In this document: piece by piece, positions 19,635 to 55,164 of the stretch
Layout: every line of letters starts with the position of its first letter
Position numbering within the stretch: position 1 is the first letter of the stretch
Source of the DNA: Octopus vulgaris
Taxonomy: Eukaryota
Assembly (NCBI GenBank): GCA_951406725.2
Contig: OX597815.1
Span: 70,556,001-70,620,000, forward strand
DNA length: 64,000 nt
Reading direction: 5' to 3'
Position numbers and translations under genes: made by a program
Notes under the pieces: generated by a model
The model's input: only the letters and a program-made list of their open reading frames with translations
Told to the model about the DNA's origin: nothing
The model's database searches: none

Positions 19635-19858
19635 TATATAAATATATATGTATTTTGACATTGTAGTGTTATCAAGTACTTGCAGAAAAAAGGATTTAGC
19701 CTTCAACGATATTCATGATGATGTGGTTGCTATATTAATAGATAATGTTTCAGTTTTATCAACAGTGCAAAAGTGGGCAACTGAATATTATATAATATTT
19801 TACTATAAAATTGGATTCAGTCCTAAATCTGATTTTTCCCTGTAGAATATACATATCA

Positions 19859-29910: not shown

Positions 29911-29980
<70 letters not shown>

Positions 29981-29996
29981 ATGTTACATTACTCGG

Positions 29997-30070
29997 TAGT
30001 CAAGATAAAACTCTGAGTTTCAGATGCCGAAGTGGAAATCCACAACACCATCTCTTCGGTTATCTGGCTA
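29997..30070 (-). ncRNA. Type I hammerhead ribozyme, mirror copy
   Basis: Exact reverse complement of 31616-31689. Confidence 0.7.
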
Positions 30071-30691
30071 TTTGAAAACGTTATGAAAAAATACCGTTAA
30101 AAATGAAGGGAAATTACTCTGTTATAACTCTGCTTTGCCTGCGTACTTATACATCGCTCGCATTTTTCGTCATAAAAATTATATAAAAATACATAAAAAT
30201 ATATAAAAATATATAAAAATATATAAAATCTTCTTGGGACATAACACAGAAAGCATGTTCTATCCGTTTTCTTTAGGGGACCAAAAACGTAACAGAAATT
30301 TAGTCACATGTGGGCATGATCCGAAAAGCTCTGTCCTTGTATTTAGACATGTGGTAGGGTCTAAGCTGCTTTTCCAGATAAGCCATCTCTCCATGTCGCA
30401 TAAACCGCACCTTCCGCTGCCGTTAGTATAGGGCTTACATCTGGCCAAAATCTTCCATTGTATGTTATAATCGACACCTTTATCTCTTAAAGACCAAATA
30501 TGATTGGATAATTGTGTCGCTTTTCTTTTGTTCCAGTGCCTAAAGCTCAAAGTGTGGTTATTGAACCTGGCCTTGAAATTACCCTCTGTCAGGCCCACGT
30601 ATTTCTTCGTCGAAACGGTGTCTTTAGTGGTTATAGAGTTTACGGTAGCTTCATATATGATGGTCTTGGACATGCAAGACCATCATTTTTT

Positions 30692-31426
30692 AGCGAAAAA
30701 ATAAAATATACACCTATCACCAGCCCAACAATAAGGAAAAGGAATAATAGAAATAGGAAGGTCATCTGGTTTACGCCCCCTTACTCACCCGAGGTGGCCT
30801 TCAATATAGGTAAATATTTCCTAGCACTGATAGATAGACATTTTCCAGTTAACCATGCTTATAGGAAACTCTTCAATAGACACAATTTAAAAATTAGTTT
30901 TAGTTCAACTACCAATTTTAAAAACATAATCAATCATAACATACAAAAAACACAAGAAGAAAACAGCTGTTCATGCAGGAATAAAGAATTGTGCCCGCTA
31001 AATGGAGCTTGCATGTCCAAGACCATCATATATGAAGCTACCGTAAACTCTATAACCACTAAAGACACCGTTTCGACGAAGAAATACGTGGGCCTGACAG
31101 AGGGTAATTTCAAGGCCAGGTTCAATAACCACACTTTGAGCTTTAGGCACTGGAACAAAAGAAAAGCGACACAATTATCCAATCATATTTGGTCTTTAAG
31201 AGATAAAGGTGTCGATTATAACATACAATGGAAGATTTTGGCCAGATGTAAGCCCTATACTAACGGCAGCGGAAGGTGCGGTTTATGCGACATGGAGAGA
31301 TGGCTTATCTGGAAAAGCAGCTTAGACCCTACCACATGTCTAAATACAAGGACAGAGCTTTTCGGATCATGCCCACATGTGACTAAATTTCTGTTACGTT
31401 TTTGGTCCCCTAAAGAAAACGGATAG
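30692..31426 (+). CDS. PLE linker plus GIY-YIG endonuclease (partial, uninterrupted frame)
   Basis: RKVIWFTPPYS...LIDRHFP...KLFNRHNLKISFS, CSCRNKELCPLNGAC, IIYEA...YVGLTEGNFKARFNNH, CGLC, LNTRTEL..CPH. The ORF-track part upstream of ~30690 is only the antisense arm. Confidence 0.88.
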   Translation, partial: SEKIKYTPITSPTIRKRNNRNRKVIWFTPPYSPEVAFNIGKYFLALIDRHFPVNHAYRKLFNRHNLKISFSSTTNFKNIINHNIQKTQEENSCSCRNKELCPLNGACMSKTIIYEATVNSITTKDTVSTKKYVGLTEGNFKARFNNHTLSFRHWNKRKATQLSNHIWSLRDKGVDYNIQWKILARCKPYTNGSGRCGLCDMERWLIWKSSLDPTTCLNTRTELFGSCPHVTKFLLRFWSPKENG

Positions 31427-31615
31427 AACATGCTTTCTGTGTTATGTCCCAAGAAGATTTTATATATTTTTATATATTTTTATATATTTTTATGTATTTT
31501 TATATAATTTTTATGACGAAAAATGCGAGCGATGTATAAGTACGCAGGCAAAGCAGAGTTATAACAGAGTAATTTCCCTTCATTTTTAACGGTATTTTTT
31601 CATAACGTTTTCAAA

Positions 31616-31689
31616 TAGCCAGATAACCGAAGAGATGGTGTTGTGGATTTCCACTTCGGCATCTGAAACTCAGAGTTTTATCTTGACTA
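31616..31689 (+). ncRNA. Type I hammerhead ribozyme (variant core CCGAAGA) in PLE 3' region
   Basis: Stem I AGATAA/TTATCT, core CCGAAGA, stem II GGTGTTG/CGGCATC with inner GTGGA-TT-TCCAC, GAAA, stem III ACTC-A-GAGT, cleavage triplet GUU. Confidence 0.72.
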
Positions 31690-31779
31690 CCGAGTAATGT
31701 AACATATTGTATAGATAAATTTCCTCTATTTACATAATATTGAGGTCTCTTTCTTTCTTTTGTTATCTTACCGTTTTAT

Positions 31780-45365: not shown

Positions 45366-47820
45366 TAAACACCAATCTGATTTTTAAAAAATGGTCCACA
45401 TATGGGTTGGAATTATATATTTATTGCCTTACAAATGATAAATGTGTAGTTTAAATTCTGAGTTCAGATCCCACTAAGGTAAACTTTACCTTTCATCCCT
45501 TCAGGGTTGATAGAATAAAATACCAGCTAAGTACCAATGCTGATGTAATCAACTTTTCTCATCCCCTCAAGATTGCTGACCTTATACTTTGCAACATACA
45601 TAGGCATCCCATTTATGGGGAAGGTTGTGATCTCAGACACTTACACACCATAGAAACCATGCAACCAGTCTCATGAGTCCTACAGCTCAAGGAGAAAAAA
45701 TCATTTGTAAATAATACTTTGCTTACAAATATTAACTTTAGAAATACATTGATAATTACAATACTTCTGCTATTGCATTTCTTATTTTAGAAAATGGCAT
45801 TTATTCTATTGGAGTATCTTAAGGAGCTTGATGGATGAGCCTTATGATCTAGCACAGAAATTTCTCAAACTGGTACAACACCAAAATTTTGTTAGAGAGT
45901 TGTTGTAGAGATTGATTTAATTCCAGCATTTTAATAGTTTTCATTTCATTAATCCTGAAGAGTTGGAAGTTAGTCTTAGAAGGATATGAATTATGAATGG
46001 AAGCTGTAACTAAACACTATAAATTACTGAAGAAAGTTTAATAGATATTTCCTGTATTATTAGTTGTGTGTGATGCATTCTTCTGTATAAGGCACTAGAA
46101 AGGTGAAACAGGTTAATGAGGTACAGAGCCAGTTGTTCACTCTGTTTTCACGGTATCATAATCATCATTTAATGTCTACTTTTCCATGTTTGCATTGGTC
46201 AGATGCAATTTGTTGCCGACTTCCAACCGGTCCCCAAGTAAGGTAATATTTCCCCATGGCCAGGCATGTCTGGGAAGAGTGGAAATAAAGAACACCAGTT
46301 GCATGACAGAGGTACTTGCTTACAACTATGACATGATGCCAAAGACAGGAGACAGTAATACATACATAGCTCCATGTTAAACTGTCCAACCTATGCCAGC
46401 ATGGAGACTGGACATTAAACGATGGTGATGATGATGATGATAGAAACAAACACACACACACACACACATATATATACACACATACATGTGGGAACATTTG
46501 AAAATTTGACTGGGGACTGTTGCTACTGCCATCTACAGTTGCTTTTGGAGTAAGAGAGGGAGAGACATAAGTAAATATATATATGTATGTGTGTGTATAC
46601 ACACACACACGCACACACAATGTGCTTCTTTCAGTTTATGCTTACCAAATCCATTCATAAGGCTTTGGTCAGCTTGAGGCTACAGAAGACTGTGTGGCCC
46701 AAGGTGCCACCCAGTGGGACTGAACCTGGAACTATGTAGTTGGGAAGTAAACTTCTTACTGCACAACCACAGTTGGAGGAGATAAAACATAAATCACTCC
46801 TGGGATGCAAAGGGTACAAGTCTGTTGCCAGTAACACCTCAAGGCAATCATATATCTTGAATGTGAACTGAACTGACTCAATATGGAGTAAAGTGACGTA
46901 ATCAGAAGTTCAATGAAATGCCTGAAAGTAGATCTGAATTAGTGATCTGTGAGTAGATATGATAGTACCTTATCCACTTATGTAATTTGATAAATAAACC
47001 TAATAAGAACTTATTTAAATTCTTAAAATCAACATTTAGCTTTAGTCCCTTTTATTCACTATTTTCTGTCACTAAAGATGGAATGCCCAACACATCCTTT
47101 CCTGACTTCTAGTCATCACACCCTTTTCCCATAGGTACTTGTTATTAATATCCATCACTTACTCTTGCCATTATCCTCATATCTTATCATCCTCTCTCAA
47201 TCTAATCACTTCATTTCTATTGCTTCTAACTACATGGTTTTAGTCACTGCATGACACCTTGTGAAAGGGTCTTCTGCTAAAGGCTTGAGCAGACCAAAGC
47301 CTTGTGAGCAGATTTGGTAGATGGAAACTGAAAGAAGCTCATTATATATAGATATATGTATGTGTATGTGTGAGTATCTCTCGTCCTAACATTGCATGAG
47401 GGCTATAATGAATGTCACCATCATACAAGCAAGTGTTATTTATTTACAGTCTTGTAGGAAAAACATGTCTGGTCAAAGAGTTGGTAACAGAAAGTGCACC
47501 AAGACATAGAAAATCAATCTTAATGAATTCCATAAGACCCATATAAGCAAGGAAAAATGGATGCTAAAACAGTGATGATGATGATGATGATGACAACACT
47601 GGTAATGATAATGATGAAGTTGATGATGACATAATGAAGATATCCTTGCAATGTACACCCAGCCATTCCGGTTCATCTTCCATCATTCTCTATCTCTCTC
47701 TCTTCTATCCACCTTCTCAGTCACATTACCTTGAGTAAACAAACATGCTGCAGTCATGTGTGGACTCTTTAGTATAACTGTATACAAAGCAACCTCACTA
47801 GTGTTGGTGCTACAATAATA

Positions 47821-48300
47821 CAGGGTGTTCCAAAAGTCATTGATGGGTTTCAGTTTTTAATAACTTCTTTAACCTTACAAATAAATGCACGAAATTTTGA
47901 TACAATCTAAATGACATAATGGAAATTAATATGCACAAGTCAAATTTTGCAACACTACTACATCACATATGAAAAATTACATTGCTTAACTGGCCACCAT
48001 TTTCAGTTTCACATGCCCGTGCTCTTTCCAAAACTTACACTGTAACACCCTCAAGAGTTTCAGACCCCACTTCTCTGATTTCTCTATTGATGTTCTCCTT
48101 CAGTTGCATCAGGGTCTCCAGTTTGTTGATGTAAACCCTCTCTTTTAGGTATCTCCTCAAGAAAAAATCTGGGCCAGTCAAGTCTGGGGAATGTGAAGGC
48201 CAATTGACATTGCCATAATGGGAGATTATTCTCTCTCCAAAGCATTGCTGTAACTGCATTGTTCCTCTTGTGGTAAAAGGGTATGAGTAGTTGCCCCATC
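47821..48300 (-). mobile_element. Tc1/IS630-like transposon 3' fragment
   Basis: TA|CAGGGTGTTCCAAAAGT TIR start; FGERIISHYGNVNWPSHSPDLTGPDFFL.RYLKERVY. Confidence 0.85.
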
Positions 48301-50786
48301 TTACTGGAACTATGTGTGGTATTAGTGAGTTATTTAGGATTCCCACGGGTTCAGCAATACTGAACTTGCAACGTTTCATCCCGTTGATGTATGGGCCTGG
48401 GTTTTTGATGATTTTCCATGAGATCGGGTATGGTGTCCCTTCGTCTCTTAGTTGCCAGACGTGATTGGCCAGTGATGTTACGCATCTCCTTTCTGGAACT
48501 CTGAGGGAGGACAAATGTTTGGAAAGACGTTGCTTGAGAGAATTTTCAGTACATCCCACATATTTCGTGGGCACATGCTGTTGCTGCAGTTGTTGTTGCT
48601 GCTACTGGTGGTGTTGGTGTTTGCGTCGCTGGGGGTGGGGGTGGTGATGGTCTCGGTAATATTTTCGCCCCTGCACGTATTGCTGGTGCTGTACCTGTTG
48701 TTGCTGTTGCTGCAATTGCTGCTGTTGCTGGTGTTGTTGGAACCGGGGTTGCTGATGCTAGCGATGGTGGTGGCGTCGATAGTGCTATCGGCACTGCCGG
48801 CTATGGAGAAGGCGCTTTGCTATTAATAATGTTGCTGCTGCTGTTGTCGCTATAGCCGGTGATGGTACTGGACCTGTTGCTGCTGCTGCTGTAGTGGCTA
48901 CCAGGTCTGTCACTGTGGACGTTGTCAGGTCTGGCACCGTGGACGTCAGGGAAACAATTGGTAAGGCTAGTGTTGATGGCGATGCTGCTGCTGTTAGCGA
49001 TGCCGCTGTTGTTGTTAGTGATGCTGCCGTCCACTGTGGAGGTGGTAGCGGTGCTGTTGGCTCTGTTCCCATGTCAACGGCTGCTATCGCCTCTGCCAGT
49101 GGTAATGGTATGACTTGCAAGAACCTCGGCTTGATAGACAACCCCTTTGGTTTCGCAGCGGTCTCCTACCGGGCAACTGCTGCGGTTCCTGCATGAACAA
49201 CCTGCCTCTTCCTGTGCTTTAGGGGCGCTAACTAGGATGCTCTTAATGTAGGAGGCGCAGCTAAGCAAGACCATAACGTTCTACCTGTTGAAAACGGGCC
49301 CGTACCTATGGGAGCTAGTGAAATGCTTGTCTATTAAGTTAAGGAATAGTCTACGGGTGTTATTGTGCTATGGGAGTGATGGGGGGGGGGGTGAGTTAAC
49401 CAAATTGTATTTCTGCGGCTGTTGGGTTCTGGCATGTTGTAGACGCAGTCCGTAAACCCGCTGGCAGTCAGGGCCTCGTTATAAGTACGGGGCTGCTGCG
49501 TCGAATGCCTTTTAGTTAGAGGAAGGCTCGAAATCCTCTTACTAACACTCTTTATCAGGTTCTTGAATACAATGGATGGGTGAAAGGAGGCTGTGTTGTT
49601 GTACGATAGTCTCGTTTGGTTTGCGGTAGGACCTATAAGTACCGGAGCCCAGGTCGAGCGTGATGTCTAAGAAGTTCGCTGTTGTGGGGTTGGTCTCTAT
49701 GATGATCTTCAAACCCAAGGACGCAAGCGTGCTGATTAACTCTTTCCTAAGCCTGTCTTGTGTATGGCCGCTTGAACCACTAGAGATGACCAGGGCGTCA
49801 TCTCTCTAGAGGCCAAAGAGGAACTTTTTTTTTAGGGTATCTAGGATATATAACCCGATGATGTCGCATATGTTAGCGCTGTCGTAGGCTCCCATTACTA
49901 CGTCAAAGGAGCCCACGAGGTCGGATTGCTTGACCCCAGCCGAACGTTTGTTGAACAACACTGTCTCCCTAGCATGCATGGTAATCTCCACATCTCTGTC
50001 GCTAATGCTAGTGAAGCTCCTAGCCTTGGTCTGTAGCCCTTTTGATATAGACGGGTAAAAATCGACTTTATTAAATTGGGTGAACCTTGCCTTGCTTCTT
50101 CCCTTGTTGGTGTGAAACCATGCTGTCACTTCGATGGTGCTGCGCCACGGGGAAAGGTTGGTGGCTCTCTGTACGCTGTTATTGATATCTCTCAATATGT
50201 GTTTGCTCGCCAGACCGATCTCGGATTTGGCCGGATTGATTAGGCGGTATTTAGGGTTTGAGGCAAAGTTCGGTTTATGATCATTTAATGTGATGAAAGC
50301 GTTTCTTTTAGCCAGAATCTCTATTCTATCTGCTATCTCTAGTTTGTTAGCTAATTTTTTGGCTTTACTGTTGATGTCGTAATATGTGTGTGGGGGAGCG
50401 CGCCTATATTTTTGTGGGACGTTATTTTCTAGCGGTCTATCGTATTTCGGAGTGTCTAATCTGGATAAATTTTTCGTCTTATCGGAGACGATTAGGGACC
50501 TATCTGAGTTTTTTTTAACAATCTAATATCGGCTCGGAGCTTACGTTGAAAGGAGGAAGAGGATTTACGGAACTACGGTTTTGGGATGATACCCAGTAGG
50601 TCCACCTTGAATGGTTCGAGGTCCTTGATTCTGGGCGGGTGTTTTCTCAATCTAATGCCGTAGTTGTTACCCTCCGGGGATGGTGTAGTTAGGTCGCAGT
50701 GGAAAGCCTTCCATCGCATGTGCCTAATCACATCCATTATCTTTTCCAGCAGCATGTAGGTGTATAGCTCGTTGGATGGTGTGGGG

Positions 50787-50790
<4 letters not shown>
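48300..50790 (-). mobile_element. Near full-length decayed Penelope-like element (RT plus GIY-YIG)
   Basis: N-terminal IPTPS...LLEKIMDVIRHMRWKAF. RT motifs RLINPAKSEIG, VDFYPSIS, FDVVMGAYDSANICDIIGLYIL, RDDAL, NFLDITLDL. CSCRNRSSCPVGDRC-GVVY...YVGCTENSLKQRLSKH. 5' end abuts (TA)n. Confidence 0.92.
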
Positions 50791-50821
<31 letters not shown>

Positions 50822-50830
<9 letters not shown>

Positions 50831-51461
50831 GGGAGAGGCCGGTTTATGGTGTTACCCTAGGTTTCTCGTCCGCAAGGAGTTTGGCCTTACGGCGTATCGT
50901 TAGATCCCAAACCTCTTGGCCTAGGATCTCTTTGGACCCCGACTAAGATTTCCCGAAATTGGTTCACCATCTCTTCTGAAACTGTTGGTCGTCTAGATCC
51001 TTTTTTTCCGACACAAACAGCCTTCCTCTTGAAACTTCTTATGCTACGTCTAAATCTGAAAATTTCCATATTTATAGGAGACCCGTGATTTCCGTAAAAT
51101 ATGTAGAAGCGCGGCGCTGGTCAGCTATCTATTAGAAACTACGTGTTAAATGTGAAAAATTCTGGCCAAGGAGCGAAAAAGATCGTTTGTATAAAAAGAT
51201 AAATCAGGAGAAGCACACACTCAGATGTAGAGCAGTTAATATTACAATGGGCAAGGCCAGCTTATGGGGTTACCCTGGGTTTCTCGTCCATAAGGGGTTA
51301 GCCAATGTCAAAGGAAGATAATTAGCTTCCTAGCAAGGCATTTCTCCCTCCGTATTTTGAAGAGATCTTAGGCCAAGAGGTTTGGGGTCTAACGATACGC
51401 CGTAAGGCCAAACTCCTTGTGGACGAGAAACCTAGGGTAACACCATAAACCGGCCTCGCCC

Positions 51462-51470
<9 letters not shown>
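50822..51470. mobile_element. (TA)n-flanked pseudo-LTR-like module with ~110-bp inverted arms
   Basis: 50822-50932 is the reverse complement of 51360-51470; a third, older partial copy lies at ~51240-51305. Confidence 0.8.
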
Positions 51471-51501
<31 letters not shown>

Positions 51502-52129
51502 AGAGTGTCCCAAAATATTCGACATCATTTCATCATCTAATAACGCAAACAATTTTCATCGAAATTGTCTCAAATTTTAGCAGTATGTCTCGAATTCAAT
51601 ACATTTAAAAAATATAATCTTTAGTATGTTTTTCTTTTCAGGATTAGTCATGCCGTTTACTGCAACAGGAAATGTGTTTTGTGTATTGAAGTATGTCAAA
51701 ACTCAGTCAAATGTGAATGTGCAACATGTATTTGTTAGAAGATTTCATAAACAAGCGCCAACAGGGAAGCAGATTTAGACGTAGCATAAGAAGTTTCAAG
51801 AGGAAGGCTGTTTGCGTCGGAAAAAAAGGATCTAGACGACCAACAGTTTCAGAAGAGATAGTGAACCAATTTCGGGAAATCTTAGTCGGGGTCCAAAGAA
51901 ATCTGTGCGAAGAGCAAGCCTGGAAACTCGGATCTCCAAGTCAACTGTTTGGCGTGTCATAAGAATACGCTTGCGGCTGACCCCCTACAAGCTTCAGCTT
52001 GTGCAGACTTTAAAGTCTTTTGACAAGCAAGAGCATAAAACGTTCTGTGAAGATATGCAAGAGAAACTTGAAGGTGACGACTTTGAAAACCGTCTTATTT
52101 TCAGCGACGAGGCCACATTCCATACGAAT

Positions 52130-54798
52130 TATTTTTAATTAACCAAAAAGGTCAAACATAGATGGGACAGACAAGAGGTCGAGGGATCGAATGAGACACA
52201 ATGAATTTTAAAATTATATGATAAAAGTATATGAAAAACGAATGAGACACCAATGAAGGAGTGAGGGACGGGTGTGACCCCCAGAAACCACGTTCCAAGA
52301 CTGATTTCTTTACGTGACCTTTATGTTCTCACTCAAGTTCACTCTCAACATATTTGCAACTTTCTTCCATCTTTTCTCATATTTATTGGATGGCAGGTCT
52401 CTCCTCTCCAGCCTTATTTTCCTCCTGAGATGGAAACAAAAGAAGTCCACCAATCTAAAGCCGGAGATGAAGGTGCTTGTCATGATTCCTTTCACTTGCG
52501 TCTTCCATACTTCCTCTTTCGCCATAGCCACTACGCAGAGGAAACACGCCTGCCCTTCCTTATTCAGAGAGGGCGGTGGAACAATCTTTATTATCGACTT
52601 GGTTGACAGTTGTACTCTTCCTAGACGTGATAACAGTTGTTCGACATAAATCCACATTTCCCAAAGTCTCGGACACTGCACAATTGCGCGCAGAACAGTT
52701 TCACTGCTCGCATCTTGGGCATGTGGGCGAAATTGAAGTGCCATGCTTGGCGAGTTTATCCCGAACTGGTAAGGCTCCTCGGTAATATTGCCATGCCAGG
52801 GACTTTTGAAAATTGTCCATAGGCCCTGGCTCGAATGTTCTCCGGAACATGCCGGCAAGTTGACTGCCAGCGAAATCCAAGGTTTCCCCTAGGGCGTCAT
52901 CACACTTGGCCTCTACCAACCTTGTATAGAACCCCCGTCTGGTAGGGAAGCACGAGTGCCTGACGATACTCGGTTTGCCACGCTCCCAACTTTGGTCTGC
53001 ACTTAATCCAAGGCTCCAGGTCACTGAAAGAAGTGAACTGAGGAAGCATCAGTTTGACGAACGGAGATCACACCCGCTCACCGTCCAGGTAGAGTTAAAT
53101 ATGCCTCAGCCTCAGCGCATTTTTAGCCACGGCATCCCCAGCTCACCCTTTAGCGGTTGTTGGCAGCAAATAGAGCGCCTTACAAGAGGTCCTCTGCCCT
53201 TCCACAGAAAGCGGAAGAGCAATCGTTCCAACTTTTTTAGCCACGAATCTGGGCAAGGCGCGATGGTTAGACAGTAAGTGATTATCGATGCGATAAACAC
53301 ATTTGCAACCTCCGCCTTCCCTTTCAGGATAGCCTTCGCTCAGACCAGGTCTGGGTTAGGAGATCCACCCTGCTTGTTACCTCGCTCTAGTTCTTCTCTA
53401 TCTGGAAGTCTAGACCAAACCAATTCCCTAGCATTTTCACCGGTCTGTCCGTCCAATGTCCGACGACGCTGTTGGGCGGCATCGACTTGCCTCTCCAGGT
53501 GCCGAGCTACAAGCCGACTGACTTATCCCAGTTAATTTTTGCCCCTACCACCGCTTCGTGATCCTTAATACCCACTGTAGGTGCTTACCTCGGATACGAT
53601 GACGGTGATGTACACATACGCCGTAACCGATCTTCCACACCTTAGATCTCGCGGGACTCCTCTCACAGCCTCCAATTTCCGTAGTAGAGGCTCGAGAGCC
53701 AATACAGACAACAGTGGGGAGGGATCTTTTCGGTTCGAACGGCAGTTTTTAACATAATTTCTTGGTAACTAAAAAATTTTAAACTTCGTATACTGGTAGA
53801 ATGTGTTTATAAAACATCTTTTTCTCTTGGCTTTATTGAGAAAATTCTATAGTTTGTAAGATATTTGTTGCTTTTTTTCAATTTCTGCAATTTCAACCAA
53901 TCACTGACGTCTATTGAGGTGAAAACATTCTGTGCCGTATGAATATGTCCCTCGTTTAAGAAACAGATTGGGTTTATTTACATTTTTGAAGAAAAAAGAT
54001 ACCCTTCCCCCCACCCCTAACCCTAACCCTAAAACAGATTGAAATGCAAAAGATCGATAGATACTAGGGTCATAATTATGGGTGACAATTTCATATGACA
54101 CCGCTAGAAAAAACTGCTGTTCAAACCGAAAAGATCCGGGGGAGAGAGGACATTTTTGATGGTCCGAACGCTCAATGCAGAACGGTTCCGAGAAGAAACT
54201 GTTCACTCGAACAATCGATTTGATGTTGCTGTGTAGAGCGGTGATCCACTCACAGAAGGTCGGACCAAACACGGCCACTGCGAGGACTGCCGCCAGATAC
54301 CGATGGTCAACCCTATCAAATGCTTTAGATTGGTCTAGTTGGATCAATGTTCCACCCTTGCCAGTAATTCTACTAACCCTCTCTAAGGTATAGCGTATAA
54401 GGGTTATACCTTATAGTGTATAAGGTGGAGAGCTGCCGGAAATGGCGCATATTTGTGCCTCCTCAATAAGTCTACCCACGACCCGCGCCAAGCTTTTTGC
54501 TAACACCTTGGCCAAAATCTTAAACCCTGCGTTAAGTAGAGTGATGCGCCAGCAATTATCGATTACATTCTCCTTGTTTGAGTCCTTTCTTAGCAGCACC
54601 ACAACCCCACTGCTAACAGATCAAGGTATAAACCCATTCTGCTGCCAGTTGGTGTAGTCGCATGCTAGCAGGTGCTCGAACAAGTATGTAATACTATAAT
54701 AAAGCTCGTAGAGCAGACCATCCAGTCACGGCGACTTGTCCTCGCCGCAGGCCGATAAGGCCTCCTCCACCTCCGCACTTGTGATCGGCCCTTCACAG
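52130..54798 (-). mobile_element. Tx1-clade LINE, 5'-truncated, with 14-bp TSD
   Basis: TSD CATTCCATACGAAT at 52116-52129 and 54799-54812. RT WRITLLNAGFKILAKVLA, LDQSKAFDRVDH, CPLSP, LFRFLWKG...GELGMP, YRGALPVRDKL..CPRC; A-rich 3' end. Confidence 0.93.
53722..54137. mobile_element. Non-autonomous TIR element with GGATC termini and internal (CCCTAA)n
   Basis: TIRs GGATCTTTTCGGTTCGAACGGCAGTTTT / AAAACTGCTGTTCAAACCGAAAAGATCC and 7-bp flanks TGGGGAG/GGGGGAG; splits the Tx1 CPLSP-LL motif. Confidence 0.9.
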
Positions 54799-55096
54799 CA
54801 TTCCATACGAATAGCTTGGTGAACAAACAAAATGTTCACATTTGGGGCGATGAAAATCCACATTATACAATTGAACACGAAAGGGACTCGCCAAAATTGA
54901 ATGTGTTCTGTGCCATCTCAAAGAACCGTGATAACTTTGGAACATTATAAAATTATCATCTCACAGAATTTTTTTGTTGGAAATCTGTAGAATAAAACTT
55001 ATGTTAAAAATTAAACCTATTAAGCTTCGTTTCTTTTGAGAATGTAGTCACTCAGATATGGACATCTCAAATGATGTCAAATTTTGGGGGACACAC

Positions 55097-55164
<68 letters not shown>

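What the first reader, a model, noticed from the sequence alone, without database searches (positions are those of the whole stretch)
50822..51899. 130-bp inverted copy of neighbouring Tc1 DNA captured between inverted pseudo-LTR arms (case 2)
Seen: 50929-51058 is the reverse complement of 51770-51899 of the adjacent Tc1-like fossil (two mismatches seen). It joins the left arm through a TCTT microhomology and lies inside a TA-flanked inverted module next to a PLE. The length (~130 bp), orientation and distance class (a few hundred bp) match case 1. Inference: a recurrent mechanism in which PLE integration at (TA)n switches template onto flanking genomic DNA, creating local inverted duplications and potentially transducing host sequence. 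I am not aware of this being described as a systematic process.
Basis: partly seen in the sequence, partly recalled or inferred. Interest (0 to 1): 0.75.

Follow-up and report, generated by a model that had tools for sequence, protein, structure and literature searches.

The report
Repair scar inside old Penelope element
A 270-base patch sitting in the start of a dead Penelope jumping gene is a back-to-front copy of two nearby stretches of DNA, likely left by DNA-break repair long after the gene inserted rather than captured while it was inserting.

Summary
The 130-bp inverted copy is real (128/130; TCTT overlap; contigs of two other runs span its right junction). But the 'inverted module' is not one unit. 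51064-51471 is the ordinary 5' end of the neighbouring Penelope element (leader, direct pLTR with tail, inverted pLTR); in 16 of 17 other copies the leader runs straight into the ORF with no TA tract. The left arm, its (TA)16 and the Tc1 copy (50791-51063) are one two-segment inverted insertion replacing about 25 bp of the ORF start. Both segments carry their local sources' private mutations (7 and 8, including Tc1 stop codons) and differ at only 6 of 241 sites, against 71-90% identity for ordinary pLTR pairs of this old family: it formed long after both elements landed. Best reading: fold-back, microhomology-guided break repair (MMBIR/TMEJ type). Similar scars are known for L1, and the scan noted them at Penelope insertions in other genomes.

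The parts
48317..50790 (-). Old Penelope-like element body (RT then C-terminal GIY-YIG), with stops and frameshifts; 3' end cut off by a Tc1-like fragment; ORF now begins at codon ~12 (..IPTPS)
   Evidence: tblastn against the young element in L170: 34-70% in pieces, 3 stops and at least 2 frame changes; Pfam GIY-YIG E=0.004, below cut-off; best other copies 79% over 1.4 kb
50787..50790 (+). Left junction microhomology ATGT/ACAT, shared by the ORF and the source at 51496-51499
   Evidence: junction print
50791..50932 (-). Inserted segment 2: inverted copy of 51360-51499 (pLTR 'left arm' 50821-50932 plus (TA)16 and one base)
   Evidence: 107/111 to the right arm, best other genome copy 90%; shares 7 departures from the family majority with it; intact copies have no TA or pLTR here
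50929..51058 (-). Inserted segment 1: inverted 130-bp copy of the Tc1-like transposase 51770-51899; TCTT/AAGA overlap with segment 2
   Evidence: 128/130; shares 8 departures from the Tc1 family majority including two W-to-stop changes
51059..51063 (+). Right junction filler AAAAT (1-5 untemplated or unassigned bases); about 23-28 bp of the ORF start are missing
   Evidence: alignment to intact copies; no local template found
51064..51181 (-). The element's own 5' leader ending in the start ATGGAA
   Evidence: 21 other genome matches at 73-84%, several directly before the ORF start
51182..51299 (-). Direct 5' pLTR (truncated) with the 57-bp tail
   Evidence: 53/61 to the inverted pLTR
51300..51471 (+). 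Inverted 5' pLTR ('right arm'), the original; source of segment 2
   Evidence: canonical PLE layout (PMC3846280, PMC8557442 passages)
51469..51500 (+). (TA)12 + CACACAT flank between the pLTR and the Tc1 terminal repeat
51501..52130 (+). 5' part of a decayed Tc1/mariner-like DNA transposon (probable partner end at 55069-55097)
   Evidence: contiguous 85-89% copies elsewhere; weak Tc3 HTH hit E=0.004; ends read
51770..51899 (+). Source of segment 1, internal to the Tc1-like element
   Evidence: other Tc1 copies run through it without a break

Best explanation
The left arm, its TA tract and the 130-bp Tc1 copy form one 270-bp inverted insertion copied from two nearby templates into the start of an older Penelope ORF, likely during repair of a DNA break long after both transposons had inserted. 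Shown: the insertion replaces about 25 bp of the ORF start; both templates lie on the same (right) side, 300-840 bp from the break, and both are copied inverted; two of three junctions have 4-bp microhomology; the copies carry the templates' private mutations. Inferred: after resection, the 3' end of the right-hand fragment folded back on its own strand, copied 130 nt of Tc1, slipped via AAGA to the inverted pLTR, copied 140 nt through the TA tract, and was sealed to the left fragment via ACAT (polymerase-theta-like end joining or MMBIR-type template switching). The polymerase and the cause of the break are not identified; the neighbouring pLTR hairpin and TA tract are plausible fork-stalling sites.
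For: Leader and ORF are collinear across the insertion; 16 of 17 distinct intact loci have a contiguous ~28-nt stretch and no TA there, the 17th has a deletion. Left and right arm share 7 departures from the majority of 28 copies (6 rare); all 4 differences are on the left arm; in the 61-bp overlap the direct pLTR has the family base at the 3 clearly private sites. Copy and Tc1 source share 8 departures among 13 copies, including two stops. 6/241 differences against 8/61 between the element's own direct and inverted pLTR (Fisher p=0.002); 21 of 22 other within-locus pLTR pairs of the family are 71-90% alike, median 82%. Crude date: the most recent 17% (7-33%) of the elements' age. No young source element: best other copies 90% (pLTR, 40 of 692 candidates scored), 84% (leader, 22 of 22), 89% (ORF start, 40 of 47). 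A 4-bp microhomology arises at 1.7% of random local joins. Multi-template, inverted, microhomology-bounded insertions are a described germline class (PMC8421209); fold-back of a resected 3' end is the model for inverted duplications at L1 breaks (10.1101/2024.12.14.628481).
Against: Elsewhere in this genome inverted flank copies do sit exactly at young hammerhead/PLE-type insertions (case 1, L128, possibly L183 and the old L004), so a PLE link is not far-fetched. Templates are farther away and longer than most described templated insertions (within 100 bp in the MMBSearch definition). The right junction has no microhomology and an unexplained filler. That the TA tract was copied rather than newly made rests on one base plus ACAT, a common TA flank. 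No empty allele was seen in five contig runs, and three raw-read runs laid no reads.
Confidence: 0.68

Rival explanations
1. Same post-insertion fold-back repair, but the break was made by an active Penelope endonuclease acting in trans on the AT-rich leader/ORF junction of the old copy, with no cDNA left behind.
For: A purified Poseidon protein nicks AT-rich DNA on both strands, in its own pLTR region or elsewhere (PMC11167929). The break is 4-6 nt behind an AT-rich start (ATAAATATGGAA). Young families are active in this genome (97-100% copies), and some flank copies carry only very short stubs (58 nt in case 1, at most 16 nt in L183).
Against: No young retroelement base is present at any junction; the site is not a (TA)n tract, where the young families end; the family itself is dead. 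Three of five local inverted copies in the random megabase had no stub.
Confidence: 0.14
2. One reading: all parts were written in one Penelope integration; the reverse transcriptase left the RNA at the ORF start, copied target-flank DNA and the pLTR, jumped to the Tc1 flank and returned to the RNA.
For: The order of pieces can be drawn as one strand with three jumps; 4-bp microhomologies; co-integration flank capture is seen at other loci here (case 1, L128, L285) and for L1 (22 templated insertions among about 3,600).
Against: It needs the element to be as young as the copies (about 1% per lineage), but its direct and inverted pLTR differ by 13%, its ORF is decayed and no close source exists. 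In case 1 and L128 the copy sits at the 5'/inversion junction of a young element; here it sits in the ORF start of an old one.
Confidence: 0.08
3. Old co-integration capture whose two inverted pairs were later homogenised by gene conversion, making them look young.
For: Inverted repeats can convert each other (own knowledge; raised for another locus in e1-8666025). One of the two Tc1 differences (51860) is polymorphic: run X19 has the copy's base at the source.
Against: Two separate, interleaved pairs would both need near-complete conversion, while the directly adjacent, hairpin-forming direct/inverted pLTR pair stayed 87% and 21 of 22 other family pairs stayed at 71-90%.
Confidence: 0.07
4. 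Assembly artefact (chimeric or fold-back long read).
For: The stretch is rich in inverted repeats; raw-read runs gave no test.
Against: Six mismatches between copies and sources; contigs from runs of different studies span the right junction and carry their own single-base variants.
Confidence: 0.02

Closest known systems
Complex germline templated insertions (MMB-TI) of MMBIR/TMEJ type (PMC8421209; passages and section 10 part 1 read)
   Same: Insertion near and inverted to its template, replacing a few bases, microhomology at most junctions, several templates in one event, present as an inherited variant.
   Different: Segments are 130-140 bp and templates lie 300-840 bp away, beyond the 100-bp search radius of that study; non-mammalian genome; polymerase unknown.
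L1-associated templated insertions and inverted duplications (10.1101/2024.08.27.596794, passages; 10.1101/2024.12.14.628481, passages)
   Same: Local genomic DNA under 250 bp copied at a retrotransposon; fold-back of a resected 3' end gives an inverted duplication.
   Different: There the copy forms during integration and lies at the new element's junction (templates typically within 15 bp). Here no new cDNA is present and the event postdates the element. Case 1 and L128 are the closer analogues of the L1 class.
Canonical endonuclease-bearing Penelope insertion unit (PMC3846280, PMC8557442 passages; PMC11167929 parts 1-2 of 4)
   Same: 51064-51471 is exactly the described 5' layout: direct pLTR with optional tail and an adjacent inverted 5'-truncated pLTR; RT followed by GIY-YIG; AT-rich/TA target.
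   Different: The extra pLTR, TA tract and Tc1 piece inside the ORF start are not part of that layout; the 3' pLTR is lost.

Membership tests
Endonuclease-bearing Penelope-like element (host element 48317-51471) | Single ORF with RT followed by C-terminal GIY-YIG | tested here: met
   Collinear tblastn match to the RT and GIY-YIG parts of the young element in L170; Pfam GIY-YIG weak, RT not detected by Pfam in the fragments; the RT label of the L170 protein rests on motifs recognised from memory
Endonuclease-bearing Penelope-like element (host element 48317-51471) | pLTR = 3' end repeated at the 5' side, adjacent inverted truncated copy, one-sided tail | tested here: met
Endonuclease-bearing Penelope-like element (host element 48317-51471) | Hammerhead motif in the pLTR | tested here: inconclusive
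   No Rfam hammerhead hit; only a loose TGAAGAG...GAAAC pattern by eye
   6/241 versus 8/61 differences; shared private mutations; no young source
   It lies in the ORF start; intact copies have no TA tract there
Complex templated insertion (MMBIR/TMEJ type) | Insertion copied from nearby template(s), inverted | tested here: met
Complex templated insertion (MMBIR/TMEJ type) | Junction microhomology, often with a small deletion | tested here: met
   4 bp at 2 of 3 junctions (1.7% each by chance); 23-28 bp lost; third junction has a filler
Complex templated insertion (MMBIR/TMEJ type) | Ancestral empty allele | tested here: inconclusive
   Inferred from paralogous copies; not seen in five contig runs; raw-read runs gave no test
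Complex templated insertion (MMBIR/TMEJ type) | Dependence on polymerase theta or translesion polymerases | not testable with these tools
   needs genetics

The most novel reading that the evidence does not exclude
Case 2 is the cDNA-less end of a continuum: Penelope endonucleases cut AT-rich DNA, including the ORF starts of dead relatives, and the loose end copies flanking DNA by fold-back before sealing, leaving a full element (L128), a short stub (case 1, L183) or nothing (case 2). Penelope-type elements would then be a standing genome-wide source of short local inverted duplications in this genome.
Probability: 0.15. Interest if true: 0.6.

Novelty: new member of a known kind. Interest (0 to 1): 0.27.

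Why it matters
For this locus little: one clean fossil of a two-template repair insertion in dead transposon DNA, useful as a warning that a pLTR-shaped arm can be a later DNA copy and that arm age must be checked before an integration mechanism is inferred. The by-product matters more: young hammerhead/Penelope-type insertions in this genome carry flank copies at a few per cent, which, counted genome-wide, would bear on the open question of how Penelope insertions are sealed at their 5' and inversion junctions.

Tried and rejected
Rfam scan of 47500-52500: nothing meaningful. Search with the young PLE end at window 31520-31712 returned nothing because its words are too common, so young autonomous PLE insertions were not sampled; the 73 young insertions are non-coding tandem/hammerhead-type repeats whose PLE mobilisation is inferred from layout. 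Raw-read runs X22-X24 laid 0 reads: no test. No cover of 51079-51165 in X2 and X4 contigs is not evidence of absence. No local template for the AAAAT filler within 47-55 kb. The 18 nt beside the L186 copy is not a repeat end: 2 genome matches only. A formal enrichment test at PLE junctions against bare (TA)n was not achieved: the random megabase gave only 5 candidate local copies and a larger sample was not available. A regex count of the empty-site gap worked for 1 of 16 loci; the count rests on the alignment. Rejected: arms as TIRs of a MITE (they are PLE 3' ends); spacer as captured host DNA (it is PLE leader). Literature searches showed no paper describing flank-templated inverted copies at PLE insertions as a systematic process; the library lacks most subscription papers, and no supplements were read.

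Full report
Observation. 50929-51058 is the reverse complement of 51770-51899 with two mismatches, overlaps the left arm by TCTT, and lies between arms 50821-50932 and 51360-51471 that differ at four sites and end in (TA)16 and (TA)12. Contigs of other sequencing runs cross the right junction (X1 50917-51291, X19 51003-51187; X18 with 30 letters on one side) and, with 26 letters on one side, the middle junction (X4 50834-50958); the left junction lies in a repeat the tool skips; three raw-read runs laid nothing. The feature is real.

What the parts are. The arms are the 3' UTR/pLTR of a Penelope family: in other loci the sequence follows the GIY-YIG end and runs into TA tracts, with or without a 57-bp tail. 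The element at 48317-50790 (minus strand) matches the RT and GIY-YIG parts of a young element in L170 and is decayed. The supposedly foreign spacer is not foreign: 51064-51181 is this family's 5' leader and 51182-51299 its direct pLTR with tail. With the inverted pLTR 51300-51471 this is the layout described for endonuclease-bearing PLEs (PMC3846280 and PMC8557442, passages). In 17 distinct other loci that hold both leader and ORF start (21 rows, 4 duplicates), 16 show the leader running through about 28 nt into the ORF (ATGGAA...KNIPTPS) with no TA tract, and one has a deletion. In the window those 23-28 bp are replaced by about 270 bp. So the unit to explain is not an inverted module beside a PLE but an insertion into the PLE, made of the Tc1 copy followed by a copy of the right arm with its TA tract.

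Age. Against the majority of 28 other pLTR copies, left and right arm share 7 departures (6 rare), and all four differences between them are on the left arm; against 13 other Tc1 copies, copy and source share 8 departures, two of them W-to-stop changes. The copies differ from their sources at 6 of 241 sites, the element's own direct and inverted pLTR at 8 of 61 (p=0.002). Of 22 within-locus pLTR pairs in 66 loci of the family, 21 are 71-90% alike (median 82%); the one at 98% lies in a local direct duplication. No young source was found: best other copies are 90% (pLTR; 40 of 692 candidates scored), 84% (leader; 22 of 22) and 89% over 92 bp or 86% over 230 bp (ORF start; 40 of 47). A crude estimate puts the event in the last 17% (7-33%) of the elements' residence. 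One of the two Tc1 differences is polymorphic in run X19.

Mechanism. Shown: both templates lie to the right of the break, 300-840 bp away, both copied inverted; junction overlaps are ACAT and AAGA (4 bp; 1.7% each at random); the third junction has up to 5 unassigned bases. Inferred: the resected right-hand end folded back on its own strand, copied Tc1, slipped to the pLTR, copied through the TA tract and was joined to the left end. This is the geometry proposed for inverted duplications at L1-made breaks (10.1101/2024.12.14.628481, passages) and the signature of complex germline templated insertions (PMC8421209, passages and section 10 part 1). A replication-fork template switch in the other direction gives the same product and is not excluded. 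The cause of the break is unknown; the pLTR palindrome can fold as DNA, and PLE proteins nick AT-rich DNA including their own pLTR region (PMC11167929, parts 1-2 of 4), which keeps an abortive cut in trans alive as a rival.

Case 1 differs from case 2: its 133-bp, 99% inverted copy of a neighbouring mariner-like element is joined through AAT to a 58-bp stub that is identical in 31 of the 39 other listed matches and belongs to a family with a CTGATGA...CGAAAC motif ending in TA tracts. In 100 fixed-step 10-kb stretches there were 21 separated inverted pairs of 90% or more in 14 stretches; by inspection most are arms of tandem/inverted repeat insertions or transposon ends, and 5 are candidate local copies. 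One (L128) is a 263-bp, 99.6% inverted flank copy between head-to-head arms of a 98%-identical family, one (L183, 236 bp, 100%) has a 16-nt low-complexity stretch like a TA-abutting repeat end, three show no stub. Among 73 unselected young insertions of three such families (34, 28 and 11; the seed loci left out; at least 6 cut by the locus edge; flanks mostly 1.5 kb), none had an inverted flank copy; one had an internal direct copy (L285) and two a long direct duplication of the flank (L282 208 bp, L303 974 bp); L296, L308 and L321 lie in tandem arrays and were not counted. In 66 loci of the old family one candidate old capture was found (L004, 385 bp, 83%). So flank copying at PLE-type insertions recurs at a few per cent at most. 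For L1, 22 templated insertions were reported among about 3,600 (10.1101/2024.08.27.596794, passages).

Novelty. The locus is a new member of a known kind (complex templated repair insertion) inside a canonical PLE 5' end. Six searches showed no paper treating flank capture at PLE insertions as systematic, but it is described for L1, and earlier notes of this scan record it at Penelope insertions in other genomes. Supplements of the papers were not read. That the genome is an octopus comes from earlier scan notes and was not checked. Verdict: observation confirmed, interpretation wrong for this case and partly right in general; interest 0.27.

Noticed in passing
window 19654-19844: Case 1: 133-bp 99% inverted copy of a mariner-like neighbour joined by AAT to a 58-bp stub of a very young hammerhead-carrying repeat; a better example of co-integration flank capture than case 2.
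   Followed up: partly
L128 4127-5234 (G000:C2:31.238 Mb): 263-bp 99.6% inverted copy of left-flank DNA exactly between head-to-head arms of a young 360-bp tandem repeat family, inserted in (TA)n.
   Followed up: partly
L285 1066-1221; L282 2308-2515; L303 3860-4833: Young tandem/hammerhead-type insertions with direct flank copies: one internal (112 bp or more, from 380 bp outside) and two very long target-duplication-like copies (208 and 974 bp).
   Followed up: partly
L183 4820-5070: (TA)n + 16 nt resembling a repeat end + 236-bp 100% inverted copy of DNA 733 bp away.
   Followed up: partly
L004 2357-2945: Old (83%) 385-bp inverted copy of unique DNA abutting a short inverted pLTR pair of the same Penelope family as the window's.
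   Followed up: partly
window 48600-49100: About 170 codons of low-complexity Thr/Ala/Ser/Asn-rich sequence inside the GIY-YIG domain; shared by other copies (L013, L024), recalling the N-rich inserts of Adineta Penelope elements (PMC3846280).
   Followed up: no
window 29966-31720: Very young Penelope 3' fragment with a 713-bp 99.7% inverted copy; same family as the near-intact element in L170.
   Followed up: no
window 47822-48370: A Tc1/mariner-like 3' fragment replaces the Penelope 3' end and 3' pLTR.
   Followed up: no
L296 1184-1272: 89-bp fold-back centred on a (TA)n tract inside a tandem repeat, without any retroelement stub.
   Followed up: no
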